From: Pseudomonadales bacterium
GTDB taxonomy: Bacteria; Pseudomonadota; Gammaproteobacteria; Pseudomonadales; GM7GCV1
Direction: 5' to 3'
Assembly: GCA_965221105.1 (NCBI GenBank)
Contig: OZ244871.1
Location: 511,648-575,647, forward strand
Length of the DNA: 64,000 bases
Shown: one piece after another, positions 43,495 through 62,278 of the stretch
Position numbering within the stretch: position 1 is the stretch's first letter
Layout of the letters: each line of letters starts with the position of its first letter
The notes under the pieces: generated by a model
Told to the model about the DNA's origin: nothing
The model's input: the letters and a program-made list of their open reading frames with translations, nothing else
The model's database searches: none
Program-made: the position numbers and the translations under genes

Positions 43495-43501
43495 CTGCGC
43501 C

Positions 43502-46407: not shown

Positions 46408-46676
46408 AAGTACATCTCTGTCACTGCGCTCGTGTCCGGTCCCGAAGGTGTCGTACAGCCCGCCATCGCTGGGAGGCGATGATTGACACCCATCATCAAC
46501 TGGGATGGAATCGGTCGCCCGGCGGCCAGATGCGCTACTGGGCTCGCTCGGCGCGGCACGGGGTGCTTGGTGGCATCGGCTTTGGGTCAGTGACCTTTCA
46601 TTTGACGACCTGCCGGGTCTCGCCCCCGCGGATGTGCTGGCTCCTCGCCCCAAGTGGTGTTACAAGCCAGCCACAC

Positions 46677-47886: not shown

Positions 47887-48408
47887 CTAACCAGGCACCC
47901 TTCCCGCTTCCTCCCCCGATTCCAGAGGCACTCCCGCCTCCACATATGCCTTCACGGCTTCCACATCGGCGGTAATGCCTTTAACGGCTGCTGGACGGAG
48001 AAAGGGCGTGATCAGCTTACCCATCAAACTGATGGGTTCTATCCGGACCAGCATGTCGAGCTGGGCTTCATCACCGCTTTCACTGGGCGTCACAGTGAAG
48101 GTTGTATGCCAACGGGCTCCTGCCTCTTCGGTCACAAGACGAACCATCCTGCCATCCTCGAAGCCAGTCACCTCGCTTTCGGTCGCCGAGAGGCCAAAGA
48201 CCTGAGCAAACAATGCCTGTGCGCCGCTGAAGTGCCGCGTCTCGCGAAATCGCGCCCCGACCCCAGTTTCGTTGTCGGTGAGAAACTCCACCGTGTCAAT
48301 CTCCGGAATCGCCAAGCCGTAGTTGCGGCCATTGGCGACGACATCGAATACGGCCTGCGCTGTTGCAGCGACAGTCCGGCTAATTGTGACTGGCTTCAAT
48401 GTGATCAA
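47887..48408 (-). CDS. SRPBCC (START/Bet v1-like) lipid-binding-fold protein
   Basis: 173 aa. ITISRTVAATAQAVFDVVANGRNY...GARFRETR...WHTTFTVTPSE is the typical polyketide-cyclase/SRPBCC pattern. Confidence 0.7.
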   Translation of the reverse strand: MITLKPVTISRTVAATAQAVFDVVANGRNYGLAIPEIDTVEFLTDNETGVGARFRETRHFSGAQALFAQVFGLSATESEVTGFEDGRMVRLVTEEAGARWHTTFTVTPSESGDEAQLDMLVRIEPISLMGKLITPFLRPAAVKGITADVEAVKAYVEAGVPLESGEEAGRVPG

Positions 48409-48717: not shown

Positions 48718-50820
48718 TCATGCTCCCCCCGCAGTGACTGGACAGGTGGCAGCCTCCGAAGGAGTGAATTCGGCGGGTGCGCAGGGCGGGCGGGCGGGCG
48801 GTGAATTCAGCTCATGCCTTTTCTCTGCAATCCGGAGCTTCATCTTACTGTTCGGCGACATTGTCGGAAAGGGGTTAATCCGAAGCTGGTAGTCAGTGGG
48901 TGCCAGCTCGAAGCGGAAATAGTGGACGAGCATCAGCAGACTGATTGCCAGATGGAGCTCGACCCACCGGGAACCCAGGCACTTGTGGGTGCCCAGGCCG
49001 AAGGGGGCGTAGCTCGAACTCTTCCAGTCGGTACTCCCGTCGCTCTCTGCACCATCCGAAGCTTTTTCCGTCTGGTGACGTTCGATATCGAAGGCAAAGG
49101 GATCGGGAAAGACATCCTCCATGTAGTGCGTGGCCGTCTGGACAAGGTGTATCTTCGAGCCCACCCGTATCTCGTAGCCCTCGACCACGCAGGTGTTCAT
49201 CACCGTTCTGATCTGTATGGGGATGATCGGGTAGAGACGCTGGGATTCCATCATGAAACGGTAGGTGAGATCGATTGCCGATCTGCTCAGCGCATCCGCC
49301 TCGGGATCGCCATCTGCAAAGACCCTGTCGGCCTCCTCTTGGATCTGCCTGTACAGATCGGGCTGACGCAGAAGGTTGTAGAGCGCAAAGCTCAGCGCAT
49401 TGCCCATGTAGAGGCTGACGATCAGCGGAGAAATCAGGGAGAAGGCAAGATCCGTCTCGGGCAGAAACTGCGAATCAGCTGCGTGCAGGCTCATTATGTC
49501 GTCCACGATGTCGCGGGGGCACCCCACGCGCTGGGCCGGCATATGTGCAACCTGAATGCGGTGTACCAGATCGGCGATCATCTTCTTGCGCCGGTTCATG
49601 CTTGGAGTTTTCAGCATGAACTTCGGGAGCGCCCGCTGAACATGTGTGACCAGTGAACGCTCCTTGAAATTGAGTACGTCTCGGAATTCCTTCTGGGTGT
49701 CGATGCCGACCGAAAGCTGCGAAAATTGCGCATTCATGAAATCCTGGCACGCCTCAACGGCAGGGAGCACATCGCCAGCCTTCCATGTCACAATATGGTT
49801 GTGGGCGTGGTAATACACCTCATCGAGACGGTCGGCCAGCGCGCCGCGCGAGTAGACTGCCTGAATAGCCTTGCGCATGCGGAAGTGATCGGCACCATCC
49901 ATTGAGGGCAGAATGCGCGATGCCCCATAGACCTGCTCGAATCCCGTGAGGTAGTCCTTCGATCGAACATAGATGCGGCCGATTCGATGCAGCCATTCAT
50001 TGGCCCCGGGGCCACACAGAACGAGCATGCCCCCCTTGACAAAGGGTACGTTGAGGTTGAAGACGGGGCCGTGCTTGCGAGCGAGGTCGGCAAAGACAGC
50101 GGGAACGTTGCCGGTTCGTAACTCTGGGCTGAAGAGCAGGTCGCGCAGGGGAACTGATGGAATCGGTTTCGTGCTCAGGGCACGACGAAAACGCGGCTGG
50201 GAGATGCTCTTGGCGGTCGCCTCGCCGATGGAACGACCGATGATATCCAGTTTGCAGATAAAGTCGACGCGCTGGTTGATCTCCTTGTCCAAAGGGAAGA
50301 TGAGCTGAAGGACGTTGCACGAATTGGCGAGCGCGACCAAAATTGCGTCCTTCGGATGGGGAATTTCGTCCGCAAGCAGAATCTTGGCGACCCGCGCCTT
50401 GATGAACTCGCTCGGTATGTCTTCGGGTGTTGAGTATGCGTCCACTTGCCATGTGCCCGAGGCGAGAGACCAGAATCCCCCATTGTGGTGGATCAGGATT
50501 CCTTTCTCCCTGAGGCTATCCAGGGTGTCTACCATGACCGCTTCAGAGCGCGGCGAAAGGTATTCGATCCAGTATTGGATGTTTCGCTTCTGTGGCTCAT
50601 CGCTGATTACTTTCAGCATGGAGTCCAGATGTGGATCTTCTGTCGCAGTCGGGTCGGTAACGAAGACATGCTCCAGATCCATGTCAATGCGACCCGATAA
50701 TGCCAATTCTGCAAGGCAGGCACCTGCGACGGCACAGTTCAGGTTCCAACCGGGAACCTGATGGAAGTAGCCGCTCTCATCGTTGAGGAGCAGCAGGACC
50801 AATTCATGCGGCAAATTCAT
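48718..50820 (-). CDS. GPP34/GOLPH3-domain - cytochrome P450 fusion protein
   Basis: 700 aa. Residues 1-~215 are GPP34-like (ELVLLLLNDESGYF...LNCAVAGACLAELALSGRIDMD...DSLREKGIL...AILVALANSCNVL). Residues ~230-680 are a P450 (ExxR: ESQR; PERF-like DPFAFDIERH; heme loop FGLGTHKCLGSRWVELHL). Confidence 0.88.
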   Translation of the reverse strand: MNLPHELVLLLLNDESGYFHQVPGWNLNCAVAGACLAELALSGRIDMDLEHVFVTDPTATEDPHLDSMLKVISDEPQKRNIQYWIEYLSPRSEAVMVDTLDSLREKGILIHHNGGFWSLASGTWQVDAYSTPEDIPSEFIKARVAKILLADEIPHPKDAILVALANSCNVLQLIFPLDKEINQRVDFICKLDIIGRSIGEATAKSISQPRFRRALSTKPIPSVPLRDLLFSPELRTGNVPAVFADLARKHGPVFNLNVPFVKGGMLVLCGPGANEWLHRIGRIYVRSKDYLTGFEQVYGASRILPSMDGADHFRMRKAIQAVYSRGALADRLDEVYYHAHNHIVTWKAGDVLPAVEACQDFMNAQFSQLSVGIDTQKEFRDVLNFKERSLVTHVQRALPKFMLKTPSMNRRKKMIADLVHRIQVAHMPAQRVGCPRDIVDDIMSLHAADSQFLPETDLAFSLISPLIVSLYMGNALSFALYNLLRQPDLYRQIQEEADRVFADGDPEADALSRSAIDLTYRFMMESQRLYPIIPIQIRTVMNTCVVEGYEIRVGSKIHLVQTATHYMEDVFPDPFAFDIERHQTEKASDGAESDGSTDWKSSSYAPFGLGTHKCLGSRWVELHLAISLLMLVHYFRFELAPTDYQLRINPFPTMSPNSKMKLRIAEKRHELNSPPARPPCAPAEFTPSEAATCPVTAGGA

Positions 50821-51041: not shown

Positions 51042-51264
51042 ACACATCCTCCAAGTAATAATCGTAATCGCGCAAGTTTATGAATTCAATAAAAATATAT
51101 TCGAATCGGGAACTGAATGAAACTCGACTCACAGCTGTCCACTCACTGAGGCACCCACAGCCACTGGATTCGAGACGAGAAAGTATGCGAAACACCTGGT
51201 GTTCTACGCGTCGACATGCAGGTCTGTCGCACAGATCGGAGCACAGGGCCCTGAAGCCGGATGC

Positions 51265-52638
51265 TCACCCGGTTCGAGAACGCGCTCGCCTGAAGCGCCT
51301 GCCGTACATCATGCGTCCGTAGAAGTTAAACCATTTCCTGGCTTCTTCGTCGTCGAACGGATAGTCTGCACCGAGTTGCCGCGCCGTGACCAGTCCGGTG
51401 ACGAAACAGGTCTCCTGGCTATTGATGAGCGTATGGGCACCGCAATGCCAGCTTCGCCGCTTGCCCTGAATAAAGCGAAAAAGGTGTACGAGCAGCGCAA
51501 CGTGCCTCACGTCATGGACGACATGCTGAAACCACCAGCGCTTGACGATTTTACTTTCATCGATACGGCTGTTTGCATTGTAGGTCACCAGACAGGGCTT
51601 GTCCGAACGTTTTGCCCAAGGCTGCTGGTTATGCATGATGTACGTGATTTCGTAATTGTCAGGCCGTGCGGCGTATTGCTCAATGTGGTTGCTGCGGGTG
51701 TCGTTTGGCTCTGCCTCGTTGTCCGGCAGCACGGATGCATCCGAGTGGACGATGGCGTGATTATGCAGCTCGCTCTCGTAACGAATCGACGACAAGAGCC
51801 AGGTCTCGAAGAGACTCGGGGCCTCCAATGCCATCAGGGTTTGATTGGCATTGCAGGCGAAAACTGCATCGTCGAAAATTTCCGTGTCGCCGTTCTCGTC
51901 AACGACGGCTACTTCCGTCTCGCGGCGGATGACCTTCCGCACCGGCCGGGCCAGGTAGATCTTGTCGCGAAAAGATTCCGTCAGCTTGTTGTAGATATTG
52001 CGCGTACCGCCATCCCATGTCCGCATCGGTGTCGCATTGACGATGTCGAAGAAATCCAGGTACCGGGCAAAGAGCGATGCCGGCATGTCAAACACATTGG
52101 TCGCCATCAGAAAGTTGACGAACATGGGCTTGAGCACCTTGTACCTGAAATCTCCGGAAAATCGGCCCAAATTCAGCACCATGCCCATGCTGAGGTAATT
52201 AAAGGGATTGAGGGCATTGAGGAATCTTGACCGGGTGCGGGTGAGCGCGCCGAACCATTTCAGGCGTTTCAGCAGTTTCTGGAATCTATCGATTTCCACC
52301 CGCAACTCCCGACTGATTTCGGTATCGAGATCATGAGCATAGATTTCACCACGGTATTTCACGCTGTAGCTAAATCGTGTATCGACGAGTTCGACGCCGA
52401 GTTGCCGCATCACCAGCAGGATATGCGTATAGACTGAGGGGATGCACGCGGTGACTGATATATCGAAGGGGATTGATGAGCCGTCGTCCTGCGGCATGTC
52501 AGCGGTGACGGCGTTACCACCGACCTGAGGCTGGGCTTCATACAGTCGGAAATCGAACTTGTCCGGATTGTGCTGCAGAGCCCAGGCAACTCCGAGTCCA
52601 GAGACTCCTCCTCCGATGATTGCTATCCTTCTTGGCAT
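51265..52638 (-). CDS. FAD/NAD(P)-binding oxidoreductase, COG2907 / amine-oxidase-like
   Basis: RIAIIGGGVSGLGVAWAL...YEAQPQVGGNA dinucleotide fold. C-terminal WWFQHVVHD...CGAHTLINSQETCFVTGLVTARQLG. ATG 52638 or GTG 52647. Confidence 0.85.
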   Translation of the reverse strand: MPRRIAIIGGGVSGLGVAWALQHNPDKFDFRLYEAQPQVGGNAVTADMPQDDGSSIPFDISVTACIPSVYTHILLVMRQLGVELVDTRFSYSVKYRGEIYAHDLDTEISRELRVEIDRFQKLLKRLKWFGALTRTRSRFLNALNPFNYLSMGMVLNLGRFSGDFRYKVLKPMFVNFLMATNVFDMPASLFARYLDFFDIVNATPMRTWDGGTRNIYNKLTESFRDKIYLARPVRKVIRRETEVAVVDENGDTEIFDDAVFACNANQTLMALEAPSLFETWLLSSIRYESELHNHAIVHSDASVLPDNEAEPNDTRSNHIEQYAARPDNYEITYIMHNQQPWAKRSDKPCLVTYNANSRIDESKIVKRWWFQHVVHDVRHVALLVHLFRFIQGKRRSWHCGAHTLINSQETCFVTGLVTARQLGADYPFDDEEARKWFNFYGRMMYGRRFRRARSRTG

Positions 52639-53355
52639 CTTCGCCACCCTGCGAGAAATAGGGCGCGCACTGTACCAGTTTTAACGGACAGTTTGAACAC
52701 TCACTCACGCACCCATACCCACAGGTACTCAGCCATATGCGGCGATACTGGGTCAACGCTCTCGGGGCAGGCTGATCGCCGGACTGCTCGAAGAACTCAA
52801 CCAGACCGGCACGGTCTTCTCTGGAGTCAGACTGCGCGTGTCCTGCGAGCTGCCCTGGACCGAATGCACAACTCCGGGGGGAACCGTGCATACACTCTGC
52901 TCGGGGTCAGGACCTTTGAACTCGGAACGAAGCGCTGAACCGCCCGCCCTCGGAAATGAAGCTGTTCATTGAACAGCTTCCATTGCACCATTGAAAACGG
53001 GAATCAGGAGGCACATCGTCTTCGGGTGAGCCTGTTGCGCCCCGCTGTGAATGCCTCCAAAGGATATACCCCTGTCTTTCACCGGCAAGATGGAAGCCGG
53101 GGCCGTCAACTTCAGGATGGTCAGCGCGGGGATGATCCGGAATACGAAAGCATGGTCACGCGGCACTTCCGGGTCTCACGCCAGTGCAGGTTTCTGAATG
53201 CCAACTTCCCTGATGCACAGATCGCAGGGTCCGATGTTGTGTGGCCTCTGACCTCTGATGAAGATGAAGAAGTCAATGGGGTTCGGGCACCCCGGCCTGC
53301 GCGCCCAGGCACAAGGAGCCCAAGTGCAAGCCCGGCCATATTCTGTCCATCCATG

Positions 53356-53919
53356 TCACAACTTCGCAGGTTTTCTGATCGAACGCAGCACATGCCGGCC
53401 GTAGACGCGCAAGCTGCGGAGCAGGGTCCTGTAATCAAGCGTACTGAACAAGGTATCGGCCAGCCCGAACGGCAGCATGGAGGGTACTGAGCCACGGACG
53501 TACTCGAGTATCCAGGCTTGATCCACCATGCGATAACCCTTGGCTACACCTTTCGGCAAATACACCACATCGCCCTTGCCGAACACCTGTCGTTGCGTAT
53601 CGCCCTGATTGAAATACCAGAACTCGCCATCCAGAATGTACGTGTAATCCTCTGCAAAATGATAGCGCCCGGTGTGACCGCCGCCGCCGATGGGGGTTCC
53701 GAAAAAGACCAGGTATTCCCACAGCGAAGCGTACAGGATGGTGAGTTGTCCCATGGTGCCGCCAGCGTTGGAGAAGACCCATTCAGGTTGAGTATCAATC
53801 CGGCCCGGGTAGCGCTCGACCAAATCTTGGGTTATTGCCGCCATCATCTGTTCCAATGGCGCGTCGAGATGCCGCTGGGCAATCTCGCGCAAAACCTCCG
53901 GTTCGAATACATATTTCAT
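53356..53919 (-). CDS. ERG2 / sigma-1-receptor family protein (C-8 sterol isomerase-like), lacking the N-terminal TM anchor
   Basis: Collinear with human sigma-1 receptor from residue ~35: WVFSNAGGTMGQLTILYASLWEYLVFFGTPIGGGGHTGRYHFAEDYTYILDGEF / LEYVRGSVPSMLPFGLADTLFSTLDYRTLLRSLRVYGRHV (cf. [53 protein letters not shown] / [40 protein letters not shown]). Confidence 0.85.
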   Translation of the reverse strand: MKYVFEPEVLREIAQRHLDAPLEQMMAAITQDLVERYPGRIDTQPEWVFSNAGGTMGQLTILYASLWEYLVFFGTPIGGGGHTGRYHFAEDYTYILDGEFWYFNQGDTQRQVFGKGDVVYLPKGVAKGYRMVDQAWILEYVRGSVPSMLPFGLADTLFSTLDYRTLLRSLRVYGRHVLRSIRKPAKL

Positions 53920-54980
53920 TGGGTGACTGAAGCGTCCGGTTTGCGGGCCAGAAAGAAAAACATCGGCGTAAAAATCCCGGACTCACCTCCGATCACCAGC
54001 GCGTCCCCCCCTCTATTGAGCAGGGTGCTGATGTCCCTGGCACCTTTCGGAAACACACGCAATGCCTCACCCACCCTCAACACCAGGTTCGTCAAGGCGC
54101 GACCAACCGGCGTGCGCGGGATACTTCTGAAGCTGATATCACGGCCTTGCAGGGCTCGTTGCCAGGGTGTTTCCGGATCGGAATCCACAGCGCGGTCATG
54201 AGCGTCGACAAGTTCAAACCCCGCCTCTTGCAACGCGTGGGACACTTCCGTAGTCAGAGAAATCTCAGGCAGTCCGTTGCCGACCATGATGTCGTTCTTG
54301 ATACGCTGATGTTCCTCGTCGTCCTGGTCGAATCTTTCGGTAACGCACCAGTCATACCCGGCGAAACAGCCACCCGGACGCAGCACGCGCAAGATCTCCC
54401 GGAACGCTGCGGTCTTATCGGGAGCGTGCGGCATGGATTCGATCGCGATGGCTGCGTCAAAACGATTATCCGCTTCAGGAATGTGCATGTAATCGCCCTG
54501 AATGAAGTGGCATAAAGACTGAACATCACGGGTGTGATGTCTGGCGCGCTCAAGCTGGTATCCGTTGTTGTTGAGGCCAACGAAACTGGCCCCGGAGTAG
54601 CGTGCCAGGTTGCCCGTCGGTCCACCGACTCCACAGCCCGCGTCCAGCACCTCCATACCCGGCTTCAGCCCCATCCGGTCGGAAAGGTAGTGCTGGTGCC
54701 TGAGCAGCGATGCCTGTAAGGTCTCTCCCCGCCGTCGCGGAGCAAAGTGGAATGACTGGCCCCAACCGTATTCGTAAAAATCGGTTGCCAGATCGTAGTA
54801 GTTGTTGACCAGAGCGCGATAGCGCTCTTTCCTGCTGTCGAGGCCGCCATCGTAGATCTCATTGTATTCATCAACCACAGACTTGACATCATCTGGAGCG
54901 ATGTCTGCGAGAAACTCGGACTTCGAATTTTCATTTCGCACTGATTTCACCATATCCATATTATAGTTGCCCTTTTCCAA
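53916..54980 (-). CDS. Sterol C-24 methyltransferase (ERG6/SMT family)
   Basis: YYDLATDFYEYGWGQSFHF (SMT signature, cf. yeast YYNLVTDFYEYGWGSSFHF), SAM motif VLDAGCGVGGP, GLNNNGYQ, IESMPHAP, and the sterol-MT C-terminal domain ending GIFTPMFFFLARKPD (cf. LFTPMMLFVARKPE). ATGA overlap with the ERG2-like gene. Confidence 0.9.
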   Translation of the reverse strand: MEKGNYNMDMVKSVRNENSKSEFLADIAPDDVKSVVDEYNEIYDGGLDSRKERYRALVNNYYDLATDFYEYGWGQSFHFAPRRRGETLQASLLRHQHYLSDRMGLKPGMEVLDAGCGVGGPTGNLARYSGASFVGLNNNGYQLERARHHTRDVQSLCHFIQGDYMHIPEADNRFDAAIAIESMPHAPDKTAAFREILRVLRPGGCFAGYDWCVTERFDQDDEEHQRIKNDIMVGNGLPEISLTTEVSHALQEAGFELVDAHDRAVDSDPETPWQRALQGRDISFRSIPRTPVGRALTNLVLRVGEALRVFPKGARDISTLLNRGGDALVIGGESGIFTPMFFFLARKPDASVTQ

Positions 54981-55450
54981 TGATGACCTGTTTCTTATTG
55001 ATTTGCCAATTTATTCATTCAGTGGCCTCTTTCAAAAGTCAAAAGCCTCTGTGTGCCGACAGTCGTTCGAACCCGGCCCGCTGTTCGCATCACAAAATGG
55101 GCAGTATTCGCGTGCAGGTGCACCCATGCGAACTGCTGCTCATCCGCTTCGCGCGTCGGGCAAACCTCATCCTCGCTCAGCCAGCACCCGCTGCTAATCC
55201 TTCCCTCCAACCCGTCCATACCACCGCTAAAACACACAGCTGCTTTTAAGGCCAGCACAGACTGACGGACATCTCAGCGACCCGCCATCAGGACCTGTCA
55301 ATCGTTCTGTTTTGTGTCGCCGCTGTGTGTAACACTCTCAACCGACGCTGTTCCGGGGTGTTCCTGTCAGTTTCACGACGATTGCGGTTGACCACCCGGA
55401 ACCAATCTTTTACGGTGTGTGGCGACTGAGATTCGACTTCACCCGTGCGC

Positions 55451-55726
55451 ATGACCACAGAGACAGGGAGCGACAGGCCGATTGACTTCGAGCAGCACCT
55501 CGCGGAGCTTGAGCAGATTGTCGCTGAGATGGAGCGGGGCGAGATGACGCTGGAGCACTCGCTGTGTGCCTATGAGGCTGGCATTGCGCTCACCCGCAAG
55601 TGTCAGGCGGCACTTGATGCTGCGCAGCAGCGCATTGCGGTGCTGACCGAGGGTGCGGGTGTCTCTGGTGCGCCGCCTCTGGGTGATGCTGGTGACGGAC
55701 GGGCCCGGTGCCTGGACGATGCATGA
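55451..55726 (+). CDS. xseB: Exodeoxyribonuclease VII small subunit
   Basis: FEQHLAELEQIVAEMERGEMTLEHSLCAYEAGIALTRKCQAALDAAQQRI. ATGA overlap with ispA. Confidence 0.9.
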   Translation: MTTETGSDRPIDFEQHLAELEQIVAEMERGEMTLEHSLCAYEAGIALTRKCQAALDAAQQRIAVLTEGAGVSGAPPLGDAGDGRARCLDDA

Positions 55727-56628
55727 GTGCTCCTGCTGATCTGGCGTCCTTTCGAGGCCTGGTGGCGCAGCGTGTGGACCAGCGTCTGGACGGGGTGCTG
55801 GCGGACATTGAGTCGCCGGCCGTGCAGCCTCTGGTTGAGGCCATGCGCTATGCGCTGGTGGGTGGTGGCAAGCGGGTGCGCCCGACGCTCTGTGTGGCCA
55901 GTGCGCTGCTGTTTGATGACGCGGCGCTGGACAGTGCGGCGACCCTGGCGGCGGCGGCCTCGGTTGAGATGATCCACGCCTATTCGCTCATTCACGATGA
56001 TCTGCCGGCCATGGACGACGACGCGCTGCGCCGGGGGCGGCCGACCACGCATATTGCGTTTGATGAGGCCACGGCCATTCTGGCGGGGGATGCGCTCCAG
56101 GCGCTGGCTTTTGAGACCCTGGCATCGGCCCCGGGCATGGAGGATGCCTCCAGGAGTGCGGCGGTTGTGCTCCTGTCCCGGGCGAGTGGTGCCTGCGGCA
56201 TGGTGGGGGGCCAGATGATTGACCTTGAGGTGGTGGGTACCCAGCCTGATCTGGATGCGCTCAACACCATGCATGGGCTCAAGACCGGGGAGTTGATCCG
56301 TGCCAGTGTGCTGCTGGGTGCCCACTCGGCGGGCTGTTCGGACGCGGCGGCGCTTGACCGGCTGGGGCGGTTTGCTGCCCAGATTGGGCTGGCCTTCCAG
56401 ATCCAGGATGACATTCTTGACGCGACGGGCAGCACTGAGGTGCTCGGCAAGACCCGGTGCGCGGATGCGGCCCGTGGCAAACCGACCTATGTGTCGCTCC
56501 TGGGTGTGGCGGGAGCCCGCGCCCGGCTGGAGCAGGCGCACGCCGAGGCGGTGTCTGCCCTGGAGCCATTCCGCACGGCCACCCTGTTGGTGCACCTGGC
56601 CGAGTACATCGTGGCCAGAACGCACTAG
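55723..56628 (+). CDS. ispA: Farnesyl diphosphate synthase
   Basis: First DDxx[21 protein letters not shown], second [12 protein letters not shown] 55723. Confidence 0.93.
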
Positions 56629-56645
56629 TCTCCGCTGCCCCGATC

Positions 56646-58595
56646 ATGCCCAGGACCTTTACCGCGATCCCCGAGTGTGCACCGGCGACACCGCTGCTGG
56701 ATCAGATTGATCTGCCCGAGCACCTGCGTGCTCTGGAGGAGGGCCAGCTCGGTCAGCTGGCCGACGAGCTGCGCGAGTATCTGGTGTATGTTGTCGGGCA
56801 GGTGGGGGGGCACTTTGGTGCCGGGCTGGGTGTGGTTGAGCTGACGATTGCCCTGCATTACATCTTTGACACGCCCCACGACCGGCTGGTCTGGGATGTG
56901 GGGCACCAGACCTACCCCCACAAGATTCTCACCGGTCGCAGGGACCGGATTACGACCCTGCGCCAGAAGGGTGGTCTGTCCGGTTTTCCCAAGCGCTCTG
57001 AAAGTGCCTTTGACACCTTTGGCGTGGGCCACAGCAGCACCTCGATCAGCGCGGCGCTTGGCATGGCGCTGGCCGCCCGGCAGACGGGCACGGATCGCAA
57101 GCATGTGGCGGTGATCGGCGATGGGGCCATGACGGCGGGCATGGCCTTTGAGGCACTCAACCATGCGGCCCACACCGGGGCGGACATGCTGGTCGTGCTC
57201 AATGACAACCAGATGTCGATTTCGGAGAATGTCGGCGGTCTGTCCACCTACTTCTCAAAGATCTGGGCGAGCAAGTTCTACAACTCTATCCGCCGCGAGG
57301 GGCAGAAGGTGCTGTCCCGGGTGCCGTCCGCCTCGGAGTTTGTCCGGCGCACCGGGGAGCATATCAAGGGCCTGGTCTCGCCGGGCATGCTGTTTGAGGA
57401 GATTGGCTACAACTATATCGGCCCCATTGATGGTCACAACCTGCCGTGGCTGGTTGAGACCCTGCGCAACATCAGGGCCCTGTCCGAGCCGGTGCTGCTG
57501 CATGTCATTACCCAGAAGGGGCGTGGGTTTGATGTCGCTGAAGAGGATCCCATCGCATACCACGCCATCGGGCGGATTGCCTCGGCCCAGGAGTCACCCC
57601 CGGCCCAGTCCCCACCCCCGCCCCCTGCGGGGCCCAAGTACCAGGATATTTTTGGTCGCTGGCTGTGCGATATGGCGGCCCGGGACGAGGCGCTGGTCGG
57701 GATCACGCCCGCCATGCGGGAGGGGTCTGGCATGGTGGCGTTCTCCCGCGAGTTTCCGGAGCGCTACCACGATGTGGGCATTGCCGAGCAGCATGCGGTC
57801 ACCCTGGGTGCGGGCCTGGCCTGTGAGGGTCTCAAGCCGGTGGTGGCCATCTACTCGACCTTTCTGCAGCGCGGCTATGACCAGCTGATCCATGATGTGG
57901 CCCTGCAGAACCTGGACGTCACCTTTGCGCTGGACCGCGCCGGTCCGGTTGGGGAGGATGGGGCCACGCATGCCGGGTCGTTCGACATCAGCTATCTGCG
58001 CTGTATTCCCAACATGCTGGTGCTGACGCCATCGGACGAAAACGAAACCCGCCAGGCACTCTATACGGCCTACCAGCACAGGGGGCCTGCGGCTGTTCGG
58101 TATCCGCGGGGTTCGGGGCCAGATCATCCGGTGGAGGCTGAGATGACGGCCTGGCCGCTGGGCCGGGGCTGTGTCCGCCGGTCTGGCGAGGCGCTGGCCC
58201 TGCTGGCCTTTGGCCCGGTGCTGGAGGGCTGTCTCAGGGCGGCCGAACAGCTCAATGCCACCGTGGTGGACATGCGCTTTGCCAAGCCGCTGGACGAGGA
58301 TCTGATCCGGTCCATGGCCGAGCGCCACGAGACCCTGGTGACGGTGGAGGAGAATGTTGTGGCGGGTGGTGCCGGGTCGGCGGTTCTGGAGTGTGCGAGC
58401 CGGGCGGGCATTCGCACGCCCATCCTCACCCTGGGGCTCCCTGACCGGTTCCAGGAGCATGGGTCGAGGGGCGACCTGCTGGATCAGGCCGGGCTCACGG
58501 CCCGGGCCATTGTGGACCGGTTCGCCCGGCACTCGCGGCAGCTCCGGAGCGGGTCCGGACGGGTCGGCGGGTCTGGTGCGGGACAGTCTGGCTGA
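56646..58595 (+). CDS. dxs: 1-deoxy-D-xylulose-5-phosphate synthase
   Basis: [13 protein letters not shown]...[46 protein letters not shown]...[18 protein letters not shown] 56646; the track's upstream extension is not plausible. Confidence 0.95.
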
Positions 58596-58899
58596 CATGA
58601 GGCCTGTGAATGACTGGACATGGGTGGATGAATGACTACTATGTGCACTGCCCCGGAGGGGGCGAACTGACACAGCACCTGACCACCGACTGCGGTGTGG
58701 CACTGTGCTGCCGAACCTGTCCAATCTCCACGAGAGGGAACCATGTCTGAATCAATGCCTGCTGTAGTACCGCCCCTGTTGGGCGCATGTGGTCGATTGA
58801 CACTGTCTGGCGGGACAACCAGAAAAGTATTGACTGGCTTGTTGCGAATATGGTGGAGTTCTGTTGTACCCTTCAGAAAGAACACGCAGACCAACACAG

Positions 58900-60036
58900 A
58901 TGAGATACCAGGATACTAAGGTGAGCAGACATTCTTCCCCAGCTGCCGACTCTCAGGCGAATCCAGTACTCGTTACCGGCTCCGCCGGACACGTTGGCGC
59001 AAATCTCGTGCGTCGGCTGCTCGACGAAGGCATCCGGGTACGTGTTCTGCTGCGACAGGAGGACAATAACCAGGCATTGGAAGGCCTTGACGTCGAGCGC
59101 GTATGGGCTGATATCAGATATCTCGACGCGACCCGGCGCGCACTCGAAGGCTGTCAGGGGGTCTATCATGTCGCAGCCAAGATTTCGACGATCGACGGCA
59201 ATAATGCCCATCGCCGGGAAATCTACGAGTGCAATGTGATCGGAACCCGCAACGTGCTGCAAGCTGCGCGCGAGGCCGAAGCCGGGCGGGTCGTGGTGAC
59301 GGGTTCCTTCAGCGCGGTGGGCTACGATCTCGATGATCCGTCGGCACCGAGCGATGAGACGATGCAGTTCTATCCCATGGAGCGCACCATGCCCTACGAA
59401 CGCAGCAAGACACTCGTCGAGCACGAGTGTCTGCACGCTGCTGCCATGGGTCAGGATGTCGTCATCGCGACCTGCTGCGCTGTGGTGGGCGGCGCCGACT
59501 ATCTCCCGTCACGCCTCGGCAGAACCATGTGCGATTATACCAACGGTAAGTTGCGCGCCTATGTGGACGGCGGCTTTGAATTCGTCGCCGCGCGCGATAT
59601 CGTGGAAGGCCACCTGCTCTGCATGGAAAAAGGCCGCTCCGGCGAAAAATACATATTCAGTTCCGAGTACAAGACCATTTCCGATATCATTGACCTGTAC
59701 GAGGAGGTTTCGGGAGTTCCCCGTCCAAATCGGCGAGTCCCCGCCAACCTGATGTACCTGTTTTCTGAAGTGGCGAGTTCCTATTTGAGCCGCTTTCACC
59801 CGAATTTTCCGCAACGTTTTACACCTGGTGCCATCCGCCTCCTTAAAAAACGCCGGCACGCCAATCTTGCCAAGGCGAAAAGCGAACTTGGCTACCAGCC
59901 AACAAGCATTCGTGATGCCGTGCATGACGCCTACGCTTTTCATTATTACCAGCGCAGGGCTATCAGCAATCCGGACGCGAAACTTCCACGCCAACCAGTG
60001 GAAGAGGAGGCACCGCAAGACGAGATTCTGGTGTAG
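58900..60036 (+). CDS. Extended SDR, NAD(P)-dependent (3beta-HSD/decarboxylase-like; SdmB-like candidate)
   Basis: VLVTGSAGHVGANLVRRLL (GxxGxxG), YERSK (YxxxK), immediately upstream of a Rieske oxygenase. Confidence 0.75.
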   Translation: MRYQDTKVSRHSSPAADSQANPVLVTGSAGHVGANLVRRLLDEGIRVRVLLRQEDNNQALEGLDVERVWADIRYLDATRRALEGCQGVYHVAAKISTIDGNNAHRREIYECNVIGTRNVLQAAREAEAGRVVVTGSFSAVGYDLDDPSAPSDETMQFYPMERTMPYERSKTLVEHECLHAAAMGQDVVIATCCAVVGGADYLPSRLGRTMCDYTNGKLRAYVDGGFEFVAARDIVEGHLLCMEKGRSGEKYIFSSEYKTISDIIDLYEEVSGVPRPNRRVPANLMYLFSEVASSYLSRFHPNFPQRFTPGAIRLLKKRRHANLAKAKSELGYQPTSIRDAVHDAYAFHYYQRRAISNPDAKLPRQPVEEEAPQDEILV

Positions 60037-60082
60037 AATAAGGATGCGTAGGACTTATATTCATAGCAGGAGATAGTGTGTC

Positions 60083-61180
60083 ATGAACACGGCAGTAAAT
60101 GCGCCTCCCGATTTCGCAGAGGCACGCAATCTGCGCCAGAAGGCGCGGGCGGCGGGTATGAATCCCAACTACTGGTACGCAGTGGAAGAAGTTCGCAATG
60201 TGAAACCGGGTTCGGTTGTCGAGGTCGTTTTCTGGAAGCGATCAATTGCACTGTTCCGCACGGATGAAGGCGAGTTCCATGCAATGGAGAATCGCTGCGC
60301 CCATCGCCAGCTCAAGTTGTCGCTCGGACAGGTGGAGGGCTGCCGTTTGGTCTGCGCCTATCACGGCTGGAGGTATGATGAACACGGCCGCGTGGACAGC
60401 ATTCCAGACGTGTTTGGACGAGAGAACATTCCTGATATTTCGATCAGGAGTTATCCGGTGCAAGTTCGCTACGGCCTCGTCTGGCTGTTTCCCGGCGATC
60501 CCGAACTCGCTCAGCAGAGCCAGATTCCGGAAATTCCGGAGATAGAGGGGCCGGACCGCTGGGCCTGCGTACCGATCAGTTTTACCTGTTCAGCTCATCA
60601 TTCGATGATTATTGACAACGTCAGCGACTTCTCCCACGCCTACCTGCACCGTAAATACAAACCTTTCGACACTGCAGATCTGCCTCACTTCGAAACCAAA
60701 GGGGACGATGTTCATCTCGCCTACAATACGCAGGTCGGGTACGGGCGCATTTCGAGATTGTTTGTGGATCACGACCGTCTCAACACCAACTTCATCAAGC
60801 TGTGCTACCAGTACCCCTATCAGTGGTCCAATACCGACGACGAAATCAAGCACTGGCTTTTCGTGCTGCCCATCGACGAGCGCACGACCCGAACATTCTT
60901 TCTGTTCTACTTCAAGTCACTGAAAATCCCCTTGCTGCCGGTGCGCTTTCCGCGTGTCGCAATGACCGCGGTGATGAAGCTCTCGAACCGGTGGCTGATT
61001 GGCCCACTGCTCGATCAGGATCGGGTCGCCGTCGAAGCAGAGCAATTGGGATACGAGCAACATTGGGATGCTCAGGCCATCGAACTCAATCCGGTAGTCA
61101 GCGCGTTCCAGCGCGTGACCGTTCGCAAGTGGCAAGAGTACCTGGCCCAGGACGCGAAGACAGAGCATGCTGTCGCCTGA
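60083..61180 (+). CDS. Rieske [2Fe-2S] non-heme-iron oxygenase (SdmA-like candidate)
   Basis: aggag RBS. Rieske motif CAHRQLKLSLG...CAYHGWRY. Mononuclear Fe motif NVSDFSHAYLH. Confidence 0.85.
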   Translation: MNTAVNAPPDFAEARNLRQKARAAGMNPNYWYAVEEVRNVKPGSVVEVVFWKRSIALFRTDEGEFHAMENRCAHRQLKLSLGQVEGCRLVCAYHGWRYDEHGRVDSIPDVFGRENIPDISIRSYPVQVRYGLVWLFPGDPELAQQSQIPEIPEIEGPDRWACVPISFTCSAHHSMIIDNVSDFSHAYLHRKYKPFDTADLPHFETKGDDVHLAYNTQVGYGRISRLFVDHDRLNTNFIKLCYQYPYQWSNTDDEIKHWLFVLPIDERTTRTFFLFYFKSLKIPLLPVRFPRVAMTAVMKLSNRWLIGPLLDQDRVAVEAEQLGYEQHWDAQAIELNPVVSAFQRVTVRKWQEYLAQDAKTEHAVA

Positions 61181-62270
61181 CTCCACGCTTGCACCGATGG
61201 TGCTCTCAAGTGAAACCCTGCTCGATGCGGCGGTTATGCTACTGGTATTTATGAGTTTCCTGTTTGTCGGCTCCCTGGTCCTGCCAGGACGGAAGCTTAT
61301 GCTGACCGATGCCAACGGTGAAGTCAGGACGTTCAAGCTGAACGGGCTCTCCCTTTTTCTGCTGGTCTCGGCCTTGGCCGGACTGGCCCAGTACCTGGGC
61401 TGGTTCTCGCTGTCATCGTTGTATTTTCACTTCGCAGCGCTGTTCGTAATGGCCAATGTCTTCGCTTTCGCGTATTCCGGCTGGCTGCAGTGGTGCGGCG
61501 CAGGGAAGCCGGGCACGACGGAGGGATTCTGGCGTGGTTTCTTCATGGGCCGACAACTCAATCCCACCTACCTTGGGGTCGATATGAAGCTGTTCAGCTA
61601 TAGGCCCTCCCTTATCGGCCTGGCACTGCTCAATGCTTCATTCGCAGTTGTGCAATATGAGGCCTATGGCGAGTTGACGCTGGGAATGATGCTCTACCAG
61701 GTTTTTACCTTTATATATATATTCAACTATTTCCAGTTCGAGCAGGGTATGATCCACACATGGGACATTCACAGCGAGCGCTTCGGCTGGATGCTCGTGT
61801 GGGGTGATTACGTGCTCGTGCCCTTCTTTTACTGCCTCGCTGGCTGGTGGCTGGTCGATGCGTCCGGGCCAGCGTTATCGCCCATCGCCGCCGTAGGCAT
61901 CGCGCTGCTGTTCGTCTTCGGTTTCTGGCTTTTCCGGGGATCCAACCAACAAAAACACCGTTTCAGGCAGGATCCAGATACCAGAATCTGGGGCAAACCC
62001 GCCGAGGCTCTCGATGGTCGCCTGCTCGTTTCAGGTTTCTGGGGTATCGGACGGCATCTCAATTACACCGGCGAAATCTGTATTTACCTCTCCTTTGCCC
62101 TGACTACCGGCTTCGTATCCTGGATACCCTTTCTTTTGCCAGCCTGGCTGACGGGATTGCTGGTGCACAGGTCACGCCGCGATGAACGCCGCTGTCGCGC
62201 CAAATATGGTGAACTCTGGGATCGCTACACACAACGGGCACGGTTTGTAATGGCACCATACGTCTATTGA
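61167..62270 (+). CDS. ERG4/ERG24-family sterol reductase (C-14 reductase-like)
   Basis: LLVSGFWGIGRHLNYTGEICIYLSFAL...LLVHRSRRDERRCRAKYGELWDRYTQRARFVMAPYVY (cf. TM7SF2 LLTSGWWGMVRHPNYLGD...LLVHREARDERQC..KYG...IMPYIY). Multi-TM. Overlaps the Rieske gene by 14 nt. Confidence 0.88.
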   Translation: MLSPDSTLAPMVLSSETLLDAAVMLLVFMSFLFVGSLVLPGRKLMLTDANGEVRTFKLNGLSLFLLVSALAGLAQYLGWFSLSSLYFHFAALFVMANVFAFAYSGWLQWCGAGKPGTTEGFWRGFFMGRQLNPTYLGVDMKLFSYRPSLIGLALLNASFAVVQYEAYGELTLGMMLYQVFTFIYIFNYFQFEQGMIHTWDIHSERFGWMLVWGDYVLVPFFYCLAGWWLVDASGPALSPIAAVGIALLFVFGFWLFRGSNQQKHRFRQDPDTRIWGKPAEALDGRLLVSGFWGIGRHLNYTGEICIYLSFALTTGFVSWIPFLLPAWLTGLLVHRSRRDERRCRAKYGELWDRYTQRARFVMAPYVY

Positions 62271-62278
62271 GGAATTTG

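What the first reader, a model, noticed from the sequence alone, without database searches (positions are those of the whole stretch)
53356..54980. Translationally coupled ERG6-like sterol methyltransferase and anchor-less ERG2/sigma-1-receptor homologue
SEEN: the SMT ORF is collinear with yeast ERG6 from the YYxLxTDFYEYGWGxSFHF box to the C-terminal FTPMxxFxARKP box. Its stop overlaps (ATGA) the start of a 187-aa ORF that aligns block-for-block with human sigma-1 receptor/ERG2, but starts at the equivalent of residue ~35, so it has no N-terminal transmembrane helix. ESTABLISHED: ERG2 is the fungal C-8 sterol isomerase. Animals and plants use the unrelated EBP. The sigma-1 receptor is the catalytically silent animal ERG2 homologue. 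INFERENCE: a bacterial ERG2-family member in an operon with an SMT is strong context evidence for a functional isomerase, and is relevant to the evolutionary origin of the sigma-1 receptor fold. Bacterial SMTs also bear on the interpretation of 24-alkyl sterane biomarkers.
Basis: partly seen in the sequence, partly recalled or inferred. Interest (0 to 1): 0.82.

Follow-up and report, generated by a model that had tools for sequence, protein, structure and literature searches.

The report
Bacterial sterol methyltransferase–ERG2 isomerase gene pair
The two overlapping genes are real and sit in a complete sterol-making gene cluster of an uncultured, probably sponge-associated bacterium, but clusters of this kind, with both gene families, have already been described, so this is a good new example rather than a discovery.

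Summary
On the minus strand, a 347/354-aa sterol C-24 methyltransferase (53916-54959/54980) is 38% identical to yeast ERG6 over 335 aa. Its TGA stop overlaps (ATGA) the start of a 187-aa ERG2/sigma-1-receptor-family protein (53356-53919). That protein is 39% identical to both yeast ERG2 and human S1R, begins at their residues 28 and 34, and has no transmembrane helix.

The pair is bacterial, not contamination. It lies on a ~2.8 Mb contig, divergent from xseB-ispA-dxs-SdmB-SdmA-ERG24-CYP51-(squalene epoxidase-OSC fusion).

The tightly joined SMT-ERG2 pair recurs in 12 species-level MAGs from five phyla. Absence of the anchor is the rule for bacterial ERG2 homologues (117 of 120).

The most likely function is two consecutive steps, C-24 methylation followed by Δ8→Δ7 isomerisation. 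The isomerase would be held on the membrane by a strongly amphipathic C-terminal helix.

The SMT keeps all 25 residues conserved in functional SMTs. It has Asn at position 249, so it is predicted to add methyl or ethyl groups, not propyl.

The literature already covers bacterial ERG2 and SMT phylogeny, sponge-symbiont steroid clusters containing ERG6 and ERG2, and in-vitro activity of bacterial SMTs. Activity of a bacterial ERG2 is still untested.

Novelty: new member of a known kind. Interest is modest.

The parts
53916..54980 (-). Sterol C-24 methyltransferase (ERG6/SMT family). The longest ORF starts at TTG 54980 (354 aa); the likely start is ATG 54959 (347 aa).
   Evidence: Pfam Sterol_MT_C and Methyltransf_11. 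38% identity over 335 aa to yeast ERG6, E 2e-85. All 25 residues conserved in functional SMTs are present; positions 81/83 are Tyr/Tyr and position 249 is Asn (criteria).
53356..53919 (-). ERG2/sigma-1-receptor-family protein, 187 aa, no transmembrane anchor; putative sterol Δ8→Δ7 isomerase.
   Evidence: Pfam ERG2_Sigma1R 2.5e-63. 39% identity to yeast ERG2 and to human S1R. AlphaFold model pLDDT 86, Foldseek TM 0.91 and rmsd 1.8 Å to S1R 7w2f. No hydrophobic segment. C-terminal helix 163-182 has hydrophobic moment 0.82, and residues 150-187 carry net charge +6.
53916..53919 (-). ATGA stop/start overlap between the SMT and ERG2, with no Shine-Dalgarno-like motif upstream; probable termination-reinitiation coupling.
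   Evidence: Sequence read. The junction is equally tight (-4 to +12 nt) in 11 of the 12 related loci; in L026 it is 18 nt and no ERG2 start codon was found.
54981..55444 (.). Divergent intergenic region between the SMT (minus strand) and xseB (plus strand), with promoter-like hexamers directly upstream of the SMT.
   Evidence: Sequence. Sigma-70-like sites at 55035-55008 and 55009-54980 on the minus strand; 6 sites in the scanned region against 1.4 expected. These are consensus matches only.
51265..52647 (-). FAD-dependent amine-oxidase-like oxidoreductase, 708 bp downstream of ERG2 on the same strand; an uncharacterised candidate sterol-modifying enzyme.
   Evidence: Pfam Amino_oxidase 3.5e-14. 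Best PDB match LkcE, 2.8e-25. Found next to or near ERG2 in L002, L005, L007, L009, L026, L069, L071, L072, L106, L118, L119 and L129.
48718..50820 (-). GPP34 (GOLPH3-like) domain fused to a cytochrome P450, 700 aa; an uncharacterised member of the cluster.
   Evidence: Pfam GPP34 1.2e-34 and p450 1.1e-34. Only distant P450 matches in the PDB. Homologues (37-49% identity) in ERG2 loci L011, L012, L014, L015, L029 and L030.
47887..48408 (-). SRPBCC/Polyketide_cyc2 (START-like lipid-binding fold) protein at the end of the minus-strand gene row.
   Evidence: Pfam Polyketide_cyc2 5.7e-10; gene called in L001.
55445..58595 (+). xseB, ispA (FPP synthase) and dxs: bacterial isoprenoid-precursor genes heading the plus-strand operon.
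   Evidence: ORFs. Pfam Exonuc_VII_S, polyprenyl_synt and DXP_synthase_N for the gene calls in L001.
58864..61180 (+). SdmB-like (58864-60036) and SdmA-like (60083-61180) bacterial sterol C-4 demethylation enzymes.
   Evidence: NCBIfam SdmB 2.6e-90 and SdmA 1.6e-124 are the best hits, although both fall below the equivalog cut-off.
61167..63679 (+). ERG24-family sterol C-14 reductase (61167-62270) and CYP51 sterol 14α-demethylase (62267-63679).
   Evidence: Pfam ERG4_ERG24. CYP51 matches PDB chain 7jj1 (deposited as Cytochrome P450 51) at 8.2e-104.
63676..64000 (+). Start of a squalene epoxidase-oxidosqualene cyclase fusion gene (1149 aa in the sister contig). It runs off the end of the window.
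   Evidence: The translation contains DVAIVGGGPVGS. The L001 gene call carries Pfam SE, SQHop_cyclase_N and SQHop_cyclase_C.

Best explanation
The two genes are a functional module of a bacterial sterol pathway in an uncultured gammaproteobacterium whose closest relatives are sponge-metagenome sequences.

The plus-strand operon is xseB-ispA-dxs-SdmB-SdmA-ERG24-CYP51-SE/OSC. It would make oxidosqualene, cyclise it, remove the 14-methyl group, reduce Δ14 and demethylate C-4. The product would be a zymosterol-type Δ8,24 sterol.

The SMT then transfers a methyl group from SAM to C-24, giving a fecosterol-type 24-methylene sterol. It is predicted to add one or two carbons, not three.

The ERG2-family protein is a cofactor-free cupin-barrel enzyme with a buried Glu139/Tyr69/Asp91 pocket. 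It would shift the nuclear double bond from Δ8 to Δ7, giving an episterol-type sterol. These are the same two consecutive steps, in the same order, as ERG6 then ERG2 in the yeast pathway.

ERG2 has no transmembrane helix. It probably sits on the cytoplasmic face of the inner membrane through its basic, strongly amphipathic C-terminal helix. The ATGA overlap, with no ribosome-binding site of its own, ties ERG2 translation to SMT translation.

Shown here: gene identities, fold, residues, synteny and conservation of the pair. Inferred: both catalytic activities, membrane association, coupling and pathway order.
For: - Identities and collinearity with verified ERG6, ERG2 and S1R sequences; Pfam matches.
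[quoted passage not shown] Position 249 is Asn; the G249N mutant of a propylating SMT made C28 and C29 sterols but no C30.
- The ERG2 model superposes on S1R with TM 0.91.
- E68, Y69, H82, R85, E139 and D155 are near-invariant across 174 family members. The second pocket Asp is at the yeast-ERG2 position (HFAEDY against yeast HFADDY), not at the S1R D126 position.
- A full sterol cluster surrounds the pair.
- An SMT lies immediately upstream of ERG2 in 12 species-level MAGs from Gammaproteobacteria, Opitutales, Bryobacterales, Acidimicrobiia and Rhodothermales. In 11 of them the junction is -4 to +12 nt (L026: 18 nt, no ERG2 start codon found). One locus (L017) has the pair duplicated in tandem. 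SMT and ERG2 pairwise identities correlate with r = 0.81.
- In relatives without an SMT, ERG2 still follows OSC or an ERG24-like gene, so it is a sterol-nucleus gene.
- Enhygromyxa salina makes Δ7 intermediates and cholesterol, and its listed C-8 isomerase candidate is an ERG2 homologue with the same AEDY motif.
- Helix 163-182 has hydrophobic moment 0.82, and residues 150-187 carry net charge +6. It corresponds to the most amphipathic segment of S1R. A TM-deleted S1R still partitions to ER membranes (10.1101/2023.10.06.559866).
Against: - I found no report of a bacterial ERG2 homologue assayed for isomerase activity.
- S1R has the same fold and the same near-invariant residues, yet it is catalytically inactive. 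Sequence therefore cannot prove catalysis.
- The catalytic residues of ERG2 itself are not established by any structure; there is no ERG2 entry in the PDB.
- Four of the eleven SMTs that failed in vitro retained all the conserved residues, so 25 of 25 is necessary but not sufficient.
- A 708-bp gap separates ERG2 from the next gene, and no transcript data exist.
- The organism is uncultured and its sterols are unknown.
Confidence: 0.65

Rival explanations
1. The ERG2-like protein is not an enzyme. It would be a sterol-binding or sterol-handling protein, functionally like the sigma-1 receptor, for example presenting substrate to the SMT or passing products to membranes or transporters.
For: S1R has the same fold and the same near-invariant pocket residues but lacks isomerase activity and binds steroids (progesterone and DHEAS complexes are among the PDB hits). 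Tight 1:1 coupling to the SMT would suit a partner protein. No bacterial member has been assayed.
Against: The acidic motif is of the yeast-ERG2 type, not the S1R type. ERG2 homologues also occur without an SMT, directly after OSC or ERG24-like genes in sterol clusters. Cholesterol-producing E. salina needs a Δ8→Δ7 isomerase, and the candidate listed for it is this family.
Confidence: 0.15
2. The ERG2-like protein is an isomerase with a different regiochemistry from fungal ERG2. It might act as Δ8→Δ8(14), or rearrange the Δ24(28)/Δ25 side-chain double bonds created by the SMT.
For: Its most conserved neighbour in the sponge-type clade is the side-chain enzyme SMT. Bacterial SMT products include several double-bond isomers. 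From my own knowledge, not tested here: methanotroph sterols carry Δ8(14), and Lee et al. list ERG2 homologues next to a C-14 reductase in Methylomicrobium.
Against: ERG2 is kept in clusters with no SMT (L007, L009, L010, L031-L037, L069-L072). That argues against a function dependent on the side chain. The pocket residues match those of nucleus-binding family members.
Confidence: 0.12
3. The gene pair is eukaryotic contamination, or a very recent transfer from a fungus or alga.
For: Both families were long regarded as eukaryotic, and identity to the yeast proteins is 38-39%.
Against: The locus is on a ~2.8 Mb contig seen in two assemblies. The flanks are typically bacterial genes, and GC content is even at 55-58% around the locus. 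There are no introns, and the genes overlap as in an operon. The closest relatives are bacterial MAG proteins at 64-82% identity. In a rough NJ tree the window protein sits in a clade with no TM-bearing members, away from the TM-bearing yeast and S1R clades.
Confidence: 0.01
4. The cluster is a decaying relic acquired by horizontal transfer, and the two genes are no longer functional.
For: A transposase lies about 2 kb beyond the end of the minus-strand gene row. The cluster is split over two strands, unlike the single operon of close relatives.
Against: Both ORFs are intact, with all conserved residues. The ERG2 protein is 100% identical between two assemblies whose intergenic DNA differs by 2-4%. 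Kelly et al. report purifying selection on the core steroid genes of such clusters.
Confidence: 0.04

Closest known systems
[quoted passage not shown] 2022, PMC9531527) and the sterol clusters with functional SMTs of Brown et al. 2023 (PMC10070321)
   Same: [quoted passage not shown] The closest metagenomic relative (80% identity) is contig LXNI01004350; LXNI contigs are named Sarcotragus foetidus sponge metagenome.
   Different: Here the SMT-ERG2 pair is inverted and divergent from the rest of the cluster, whereas close relatives have one co-directional operon. Brown et al. did not search for ERG2. The conserved stop/start coupling of the SMT and ERG2 is not mentioned in the texts I could read.
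Saccharomyces cerevisiae ERG6 → ERG2 (zymosterol → fecosterol → episterol)
   Same: Same two protein families, 38% and 39% identical, acting on consecutive steps. The ERG2-type acidic motif is shared (HFAEDY against HFADDY).
   Different: The yeast genes are unlinked, and yeast ERG2 has an N-terminal TM anchor (KD 2.3) that the bacterial protein lacks. The bacterial C-4 demethylation partners are SdmA/SdmB, not ERG25-27.
Sigma-1 receptor (human 5HK1, Xenopus 7W2B and related entries)
   Same: The fold is the same: TM 0.91, rmsd 1.7-1.8 Å, 38-39% identity. The equivalents of Glu172, Tyr103, His116, Arg119 and Asp188 are conserved.
   Different: There is no N-terminal TM helix. S1R Asp126 aligns to Thr93, and the Asp sits two residues earlier, as in yeast ERG2. 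S1R is a non-catalytic receptor or chaperone.
Bacterial C-8 sterol isomerase homologues of Enhygromyxa salina and Calothrix (Lee et al. 2023, PMC10202945) and the bacterial ERG2 clades of Hoshino & Gaucher 2021 (PMC8237579)
   Same: Same family, also anchor-less. 50% identity to E. salina and 48% to Calothrix.
   Different: The myxobacterial ERG2 genes stand alone rather than beside an SMT. Calothrix carries the S1R-type Asp position. The window protein belongs to a separate clade shared by sponge-associated MAGs of several phyla.

Membership tests
Sterol C-24 methyltransferase (ERG6/SMT) | Class I SAM methyltransferase domain followed by the Sterol_MT_C domain | tested here: met
   Pfam Methyltransf_11 2.2e-20 (residues 112-206) and Sterol_MT_C 7.9e-21 (residues 288-348).
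Sterol C-24 methyltransferase (ERG6/SMT) | Region I sterol-binding motif YEYGWGxxFHF and Region II DxGxGxxGP | tested here: met
   DFYEYGWGQSFHF and LDAGCGVGGP align to ERG6 residues 79-91 and 124-133.
Sterol C-24 methyltransferase (ERG6/SMT) | The 25 residues conserved among all SMTs that were functional in vitro (Brown & Welander 2025 preprint) | tested here: met
   25 of 25 are identical when mapped on the ERG6 alignment (list taken).
Sterol C-24 methyltransferase (ERG6/SMT) | SAM-dependent methylation of a Δ24 sterol | not testable with these tools
   This needs a lysate assay with desmosterol, zymosterol or 24-methylenecholesterol.
Propylating (24-isopropyl-forming) bacterial SMTs | Gly at ERG6 position 249 (necessary), plus Phe at position 81 and/or 83 | tested here: not met
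   Position 249 is Asn and positions 81/83 are Tyr/Tyr. The G249N mutant made no C30 sterols.
ERG2_Sigma1R family (PF04622) | Match to the family profile above the gathering score | tested here: met
   213.7 bits against a cut-off of 21, E 2.5e-63.
ERG2_Sigma1R family (PF04622) | Cupin-like β-barrel capped by C-terminal helices, as in S1R crystal structures | tested here: met
   AlphaFold model pLDDT 86.3. Foldseek TM 0.91 and rmsd 1.8 Å to 7w2f and 5hk1; the next-best folds are generic cupins at TM about 0.42.
ERG2_Sigma1R family (PF04622) | Single N-terminal transmembrane anchor (present in eukaryotic ERG2 and S1R) | tested here: not met
   No upstream coding potential and no hydrophobic segment. 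Profile positions 1-20 are unmatched. The anchor is also absent in 117 of 120 closest homologues, so it is a eukaryotic addition rather than a defining feature of the family.
ERG2_Sigma1R family (PF04622) | Conserved pocket residues (equivalents of S1R Glu172, Tyr103, His116, Arg119) | tested here: met
   E139, Y69, H82 and R85 are present, and each is conserved in at least 163 of 174 family sequences.
Fungal-type ERG2 (catalytic C-8 isomerase) as opposed to the S1R type | Second pocket Asp at the yeast D126 position rather than the S1R D126 position | tested here: met
   The window has E90-D91-x-T93, yeast has D125-D126-x-F128, and S1R has E123-I124-x-D126. That this residue decides catalysis is my inference, not established.
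Fungal-type ERG2 (catalytic C-8 isomerase) as opposed to the S1R type | Δ8→Δ7 sterol isomerase activity or rescue of erg2Δ | not testable with these tools
   I found no published assay of any bacterial member.
Sponge-symbiont cluster of steroid genes (CSG, Kelly et al. 2022) | Adjacent ERG24-CYP51-OSC core on one strand | tested here: met
   ERG24 at 61167-62270, CYP51 at 62267-63679, and the SE/OSC fusion from 63676.

The most novel reading that the evidence does not exclude
The SMT-ERG2 pair is a mobile, translationally coupled two-enzyme module that has spread among symbionts of at least five phyla. Its ERG2 is an active, monotopic, TM-less Δ8→Δ7 isomerase and represents the ancestral form of the sigma-1-receptor fold. 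The linked amine-oxidase-like flavoprotein and the GPP34-P450 fusion are new bacterial sterol enzymes that replace the eukaryotic ERG3/ERG5-type steps. Together these would make the bacteria producers of Δ7 or Δ5,7 24-alkyl sterols.
Probability: 0.3. Interest if true: 0.55.

Novelty: new member of a known kind. Interest (0 to 1): 0.3.

Why it matters
The locus adds a complete, long-read-quality example to the published evidence that uncultured, host-associated bacteria carry near-eukaryotic sterol pathways, including side-chain alkylation. That evidence bears on how 24-alkyl steranes are read as eukaryote or sponge biomarkers.

The practical value is as a well-defined test case. It offers a small, soluble-looking, anchor-less ERG2 that could give the first biochemical and structural look at a catalytic member of the sigma-1-receptor fold. 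No ERG2 structure exists in the PDB.

It also offers a conserved SMT-ERG2 junction on which to test translational coupling or a physical complex between the two enzymes. Two recurrent uncharacterised neighbours, the FAD oxidoreductase and the GPP34-P450 fusion, may be missing bacterial sterol-modifying enzymes.

None of this overturns current views.

Tried and rejected
- **Contamination or recent eukaryotic transfer.** Rejected on the flanks, contig size, operon overlap and closest relatives.
- **Hidden N-terminal anchor through a mis-called start or frameshift.** Rejected. The frame opens 21 codons upstream with no other start codon, and the same holds in the related loci whose ERG2 start could be placed.
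- **The anchor-less state as something special.** Rejected. 117 of 120 homologues lack any N-terminal extension, and the 3 extensions that exist are not hydrophobic.
- **Propylating (24-isopropyl) SMT.** Rejected on Asn249 and Tyr81/Tyr83.
- **Looking for ERG2 in Brown et al. 2023.** The 'erg2' matches in the supplement were all ERG24, because ERG2 was not among their queries. I therefore could not link the pair to one of their assayed SMTs. The JGIcombinedJ30088 contig did not appear among the 80 metagenome loci returned.
- **Rfam scan of the window.** No RNA family was found, so no rRNA-based taxonomy is possible.
- **Terminator and promoter scans.** They gave only consensus-level hints.
- **The 708-bp gap after ERG2.** It shows only weak tblastx similarity to two close relatives and no recognisable gene.
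- **The SI of Hoshino & Gaucher.** It holds the ERG2 tree and the 'three uncharacterized genes' that accompany the SMT, but it is not held as text. I could not check whether those genes are the FAD oxidoreductase, the GPP34-P450 fusion and the SRPBCC protein seen here.
- **My NJ tree.** It has no support values and few named eukaryotes. It serves only to show that the window protein is not nested among TM-bearing eukaryotic sequences.
Full report

Yes. The six-frame ORF list shows two ORFs on the minus strand. One runs 53916-54980 (354 aa from a TTG). The other runs 53356-53919 (187 aa from an ATG).

The first ORF matches Pfam Sterol_MT_C (7.9e-21) and Methyltransf_11 (2.2e-20). The second matches ERG2_Sigma1R at 2.5e-63 over profile positions 21-206 of 210.

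I recalled the reference sequences of yeast ERG6, yeast ERG2 and human sigma-1 receptor from memory. An exact-sequence look-up returned them as ERG6 S288C, ERG2_YEAST and SGMR1_HUMAN, so they are verified.

- BLASTP of the SMT against ERG6 gives 38% identity over 335 residues (2e-85).
- The 187-aa protein is 39% identical to yeast ERG2, starting at residue 28.
- It is also 39% identical to human S1R, starting at residue 34.
- PDB sequence search hits only S1R entries, the best being 7w2b at 1.3e-37.

The junction reads GTC ACC CAA TGA AAT ATG, so the SMT stop and the ERG2 start share ATGA.

The SMT most likely starts at the ATG at 54959 (347 aa). One of the two public assemblies calls it that way, and the other uses the TTG.

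**2. The missing anchor is real, but it is the bacterial norm.**

The ERG2 frame opens only 21 codons upstream of the ATG and has no alternative start codon. The protein has no 19-residue window with Kyte-Doolittle hydropathy above 1.29. The N-terminal TM segments of yeast ERG2 and human S1R reach 2.30 and 2.24.

Among the 120 closest database homologues, 117 have no N-terminal extension of 15 residues or more. The three extensions that exist are not hydrophobic.

An AlphaFold model built on 18 homologues (pLDDT 86.3, pTM 0.85) has two N-terminal helices, a β-barrel and two C-terminal helices. It superposes on S1R crystal structures with TM 0.91 and rmsd 1.7-1.8 Å. The next-best matches are generic cupins at TM about 0.42, and there is no ERG2 structure in the PDB.

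The C-terminal helix 163-182 (YRTLLRSLRVYGRHVLRSIR) has the highest hydrophobic moment in the protein (0.82), and residues 150-187 carry net charge +6. It corresponds to the most amphipathic stretch of S1R. I infer peripheral, monotopic binding to the anionic inner membrane. A preprint reports that a TM-deleted S1R still partitions to ER sheets, which makes this plausible.

**3. What surrounds the pair.**

The window is bacterial throughout, with GC content of 51-65% and 55-58% around the locus. An exact-protein look-up places the ERG2 protein on a 2.81 Mb contig of ENA assembly ERZ25070844. A sister contig of 2.77 Mb also exists. The window is 96-98% identical to the former in intergenic DNA, so it probably comes from the latter.

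Divergent from the SMT, on the plus strand, lie these genes:

- xseB, ispA and dxs;
- an SdmB-like 3β-HSD (NCBIfam SdmB 2.6e-90);
- an SdmA-like Rieske oxygenase (SdmA 1.6e-124);
- an ERG24-family reductase;
- CYP51 (8.2e-104 to PDB chain 7jj1, deposited as Cytochrome P450 51);
- the start of a squalene epoxidase-oxidosqualene cyclase fusion, which runs off the window end.

Downstream of ERG2 on the minus strand, after a 708-bp gap, lie these genes:

- an amine-oxidase-like FAD protein (best PDB match LkcE, 2.8e-25);
- a 76-aa ORF;
- a GPP34-P450 fusion;
- an SRPBCC protein.

The finding is therefore one arm of a sterol supercluster of about 16 kb, not an isolated pair.

**4. Relatives elsewhere.**

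A scan of one genome per GTDB species found 151 genomes with an ERG2 relative, and the best 80 loci were fetched. The closest (64-82% identity) are MAGs labelled Gammaproteobacteria, Alphaproteobacteria, Opitutales, Bryobacterales, Acidimicrobiales/Acidimicrobiia and Rhodothermales. These score higher than other gammaproteobacterial lineages (Arenicellales 53-59%, others 49-59%) and higher than Myxococcota (about 50%). This pattern fits the horizontal spread among sponge symbionts reported by Kelly et al..

The best hit in the metagenome collection (80%) is LXNI01004350. LXNI contigs are called Sarcotragus foetidus sponge metagenome by Brown and Welander. From memory, the SB06xx, RHO3 and jk18x/p16x bin names also belong to sponge-microbiome studies; I did not verify this.

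tblastn with the window's cluster proteins shows an SMT immediately upstream of ERG2, on the same strand, in 12 of the 27 loci of this clade: L002, L003, L006, L008, L011, L014, L017, L019, L023, L024, L026 and L027. These come from five phyla.

The stop/start junction is tight in almost all of them:

| Junction | Loci |
|---|---|
| ATGA overlap | window/L001, L002, L003, L024, L027 |
| TGAATG, abutting | L006, L008, L011, L014 |
| 3-12 nt gap | L017, L019, L023 |
| 18 nt gap, expected ATG reads AAG | L026 |

Several relatives have a GGAG-like motif before the ATG. The window has none, so termination-reinitiation coupling is the likely way ERG2 is translated here (inference).

L017 carries the pair twice in tandem. 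Across the 12 loci with a defined pair (the window's sister contig L001 and 11 of the related loci; L026 excluded), SMT and ERG2 pairwise identities correlate with r = 0.81.

In the closest relatives the whole cluster is one co-directional operon, SdmB-SdmA-ERG24-CYP51-OSC-SMT-ERG2. In the window the pair has been inverted as a unit.

Where no SMT is present, ERG2 follows OSC directly (L007, L009, L010). In other lineages it follows an ERG24-like gene, often with the FAD oxidoreductase right after it (L031-L037, L069-L072, L083-L090, L118-L119). ERG2 is therefore tied to sterol-nucleus genes in general, and the SMT link is specific to one clade.

**5. Residue-level tests.**

Brown and Welander (2025 preprint) list 25 residues conserved in every SMT that worked in vitro. 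They also show that Gly249 (ERG6 numbering) is necessary for 24-isopropyl formation and that Phe at position 81 or 83 promotes it.

Mapped through the ERG6 alignment, the window SMT has 25 of 25 conserved residues, Tyr81, Tyr83 and Asn249. Their G249N mutant made C28 and C29 but no C30 sterols. My prediction is therefore methylation, possibly ethylation, but not propylation.

For ERG2, an alignment of 174 family members shows E68, Y69, H82, R85, E139 and D155 (window numbering) to be almost invariant. E139 is the equivalent of S1R Glu172, and Y69 is the equivalent of Tyr103.

A second acidic residue occupies one of two alternative positions, two residues apart on the same β-strand:

| Type | Position of the Asp | Motif | Examples |
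|---|---|---|---|
| Yeast-ERG2 type | window position 91 | [DE]-D-x-X | the window (EDxT), E. salina, yeast |
| S1R type | window position 93 | [DE]-Φ-x-D | human S1R, Calothrix |

Both types occur in bacteria. This favours an ERG2-like rather than an S1R-like pocket. The catalytic residues of ERG2 are not established, so the point is supportive only.

**6. Mechanism proposed.**

In the yeast pathway, ERG6 (zymosterol → fecosterol) is immediately followed by ERG2 (fecosterol → episterol). This is established biochemistry and rests on my own knowledge. The coupled pair thus encodes two consecutive steps downstream of the OSC/CYP51/ERG24/SdmAB block encoded on the other strand.

Support from a cultured organism is indirect. 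[quoted passage not shown]

I put the overall explanation at 0.65. The rivals are:

- a non-catalytic sterol-binding role like that of S1R (0.15);
- an isomerase of different regiochemistry (0.12);
- a decaying relic (0.04);
- contamination (0.01).

**7. Comparison with what is known.**

- Hoshino & Gaucher 2021 built phylogenies of bacterial ERG2 and SMT. They proposed, inconclusively, a myxobacteria-to-eukaryote transfer of both genes. They noted that the SMT is often accompanied by three uncharacterised genes.
- Kelly et al. 2022 described clusters of steroid genes in 115 of 537 Ircinia sponge MAGs from 10 phyla. [quoted passage not shown]
- Lee et al. 2023 tabulated C-8 isomerase homologues across bacterial genomes.
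- Brown et al. 2023 showed in-vitro activity of bacterial SMTs from the same type of cluster, including the fused SMO-OSC. They did not search for ERG2.
- NCBI already names relatives 'ERG2 family protein'.

The family comprises 877 clusters at 50% identity with E ≤ 1e-3. A rough NJ tree places the window protein in a clade with no TM-bearing members, together with other bacterial MAG sequences and Bradyrhizobium. It is apart from the TM-bearing clades that contain yeast ERG2 and S1R. The two TM-bearing representatives that carry names are a yeast and a mollusc.

Three things appear not to be spelled out in the texts I could read: the conserved stop/start coupling of the SMT and ERG2 as a transferable two-gene unit, the family-wide absence of the anchor in bacteria, and the two alternative Asp positions. 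These are refinements, not a new kind of system.

**8. Verdict.**

This is a new, high-quality member of a published class of bacterial sterol clusters. Its interest lies mainly in being a clean experimental entry point to the first catalytic, TM-less member of the sigma-1-receptor fold, and to two recurrent uncharacterised neighbours.

Noticed in passing
window 51265-52647 (-); also L069, L071, L072, L106, L118, L119, L129, L002, L005, L007, L009, L026: An amine-oxidase-like FAD oxidoreductase (best PDB match LkcE, 2.8e-25) recurs immediately next to or near ERG2 in unrelated lineages. Examples are the ERG24-like-ERG2-FAD oxidoreductase trios in Chromatiales cave MAGs and in soil and sediment metagenomes, at about 60% identity. 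It may be an uncharacterised bacterial sterol-nucleus enzyme, such as a substitute desaturase or reductase.
   Followed up: partly
window 48718-50820 (-), with the 76-aa ORF 50817-51047 (-) overlapping its start: A 700-aa fusion of a GPP34/GOLPH3-like domain with a cytochrome P450 that is only distantly related to solved P450s. Homologues (37-49% identity) occur in other ERG2-containing loci (L011, L012, L014, L015, L029, L030). The small upstream ORF has no Pfam match.
   Followed up: partly
ERG2 family alignment; window ERG2 residues 90-93: Across 174 family members the second pocket Asp sits at one of two positions two residues apart. These are the yeast-ERG2 type [DE]-D-x-X and the S1R type [DE]-Φ-x-D. 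A few minor motif variants carry no Asp at either position. Both types are found in bacteria. This could mark a functional split inside the family.
   Followed up: partly
L017 8978-12292 (Bryobacterales MAG): The SMT-ERG2 pair is present twice in tandem (SMT 336 aa + ERG2 187 aa, then SMT 336 aa + ERG2 191 aa). The two genes therefore duplicate as a unit.
   Followed up: partly
window 63676-64000 (+), continuing in L001: Squalene epoxidase and oxidosqualene cyclase are fused into one 1149-aa gene whose start overlaps the CYP51 stop. The same fusion is implied by Brown et al.'s tables, where ERG1 and ERG7 hit one gene.
   Followed up: partly
window 40283-44719 (+): An MMPL-family transporter (794 aa), a LolA_like/DUF1329 protein (273 aa) and a 405-aa protein with no Pfam match form a lipid-export-like trio. 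It lies about 3-4 kb from the minus-strand sterol genes and is separated from them by a YhgA-like transposase (45343-46653, -). A role in sterol export is possible but untested.
   Followed up: no
window 53095-53220 (in the 708-bp gap downstream of ERG2): A stretch of about 125 nt shows weak tblastx similarity (E 5e-5) to the equivalent position downstream of ERG2 in the two closest relatives (L002, L082). No ORF or RNA family was recognised, and the rest of the gap has no match.
   Followed up: partly
window 25223-38029: There are two TonB-dependent receptors (25223-28045 on the minus strand, 35003-38029 on the plus strand), a FecR-like anti-sigma protein (30048-31136), an MFS transporter (28179-29432) and an S9 peptidase (38033-39991). 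These are ordinary gammaproteobacterial uptake genes and confirm the bacterial chromosome context.
   Followed up: no
L026 5388-5412: In this MAG the position of the ERG2 start codon reads AAG instead of ATG (TGAAAGAAGTAC against TGAATGAAGTAC in relatives). This is a sequencing error, a pseudogene or an unusual start.
   Followed up: no
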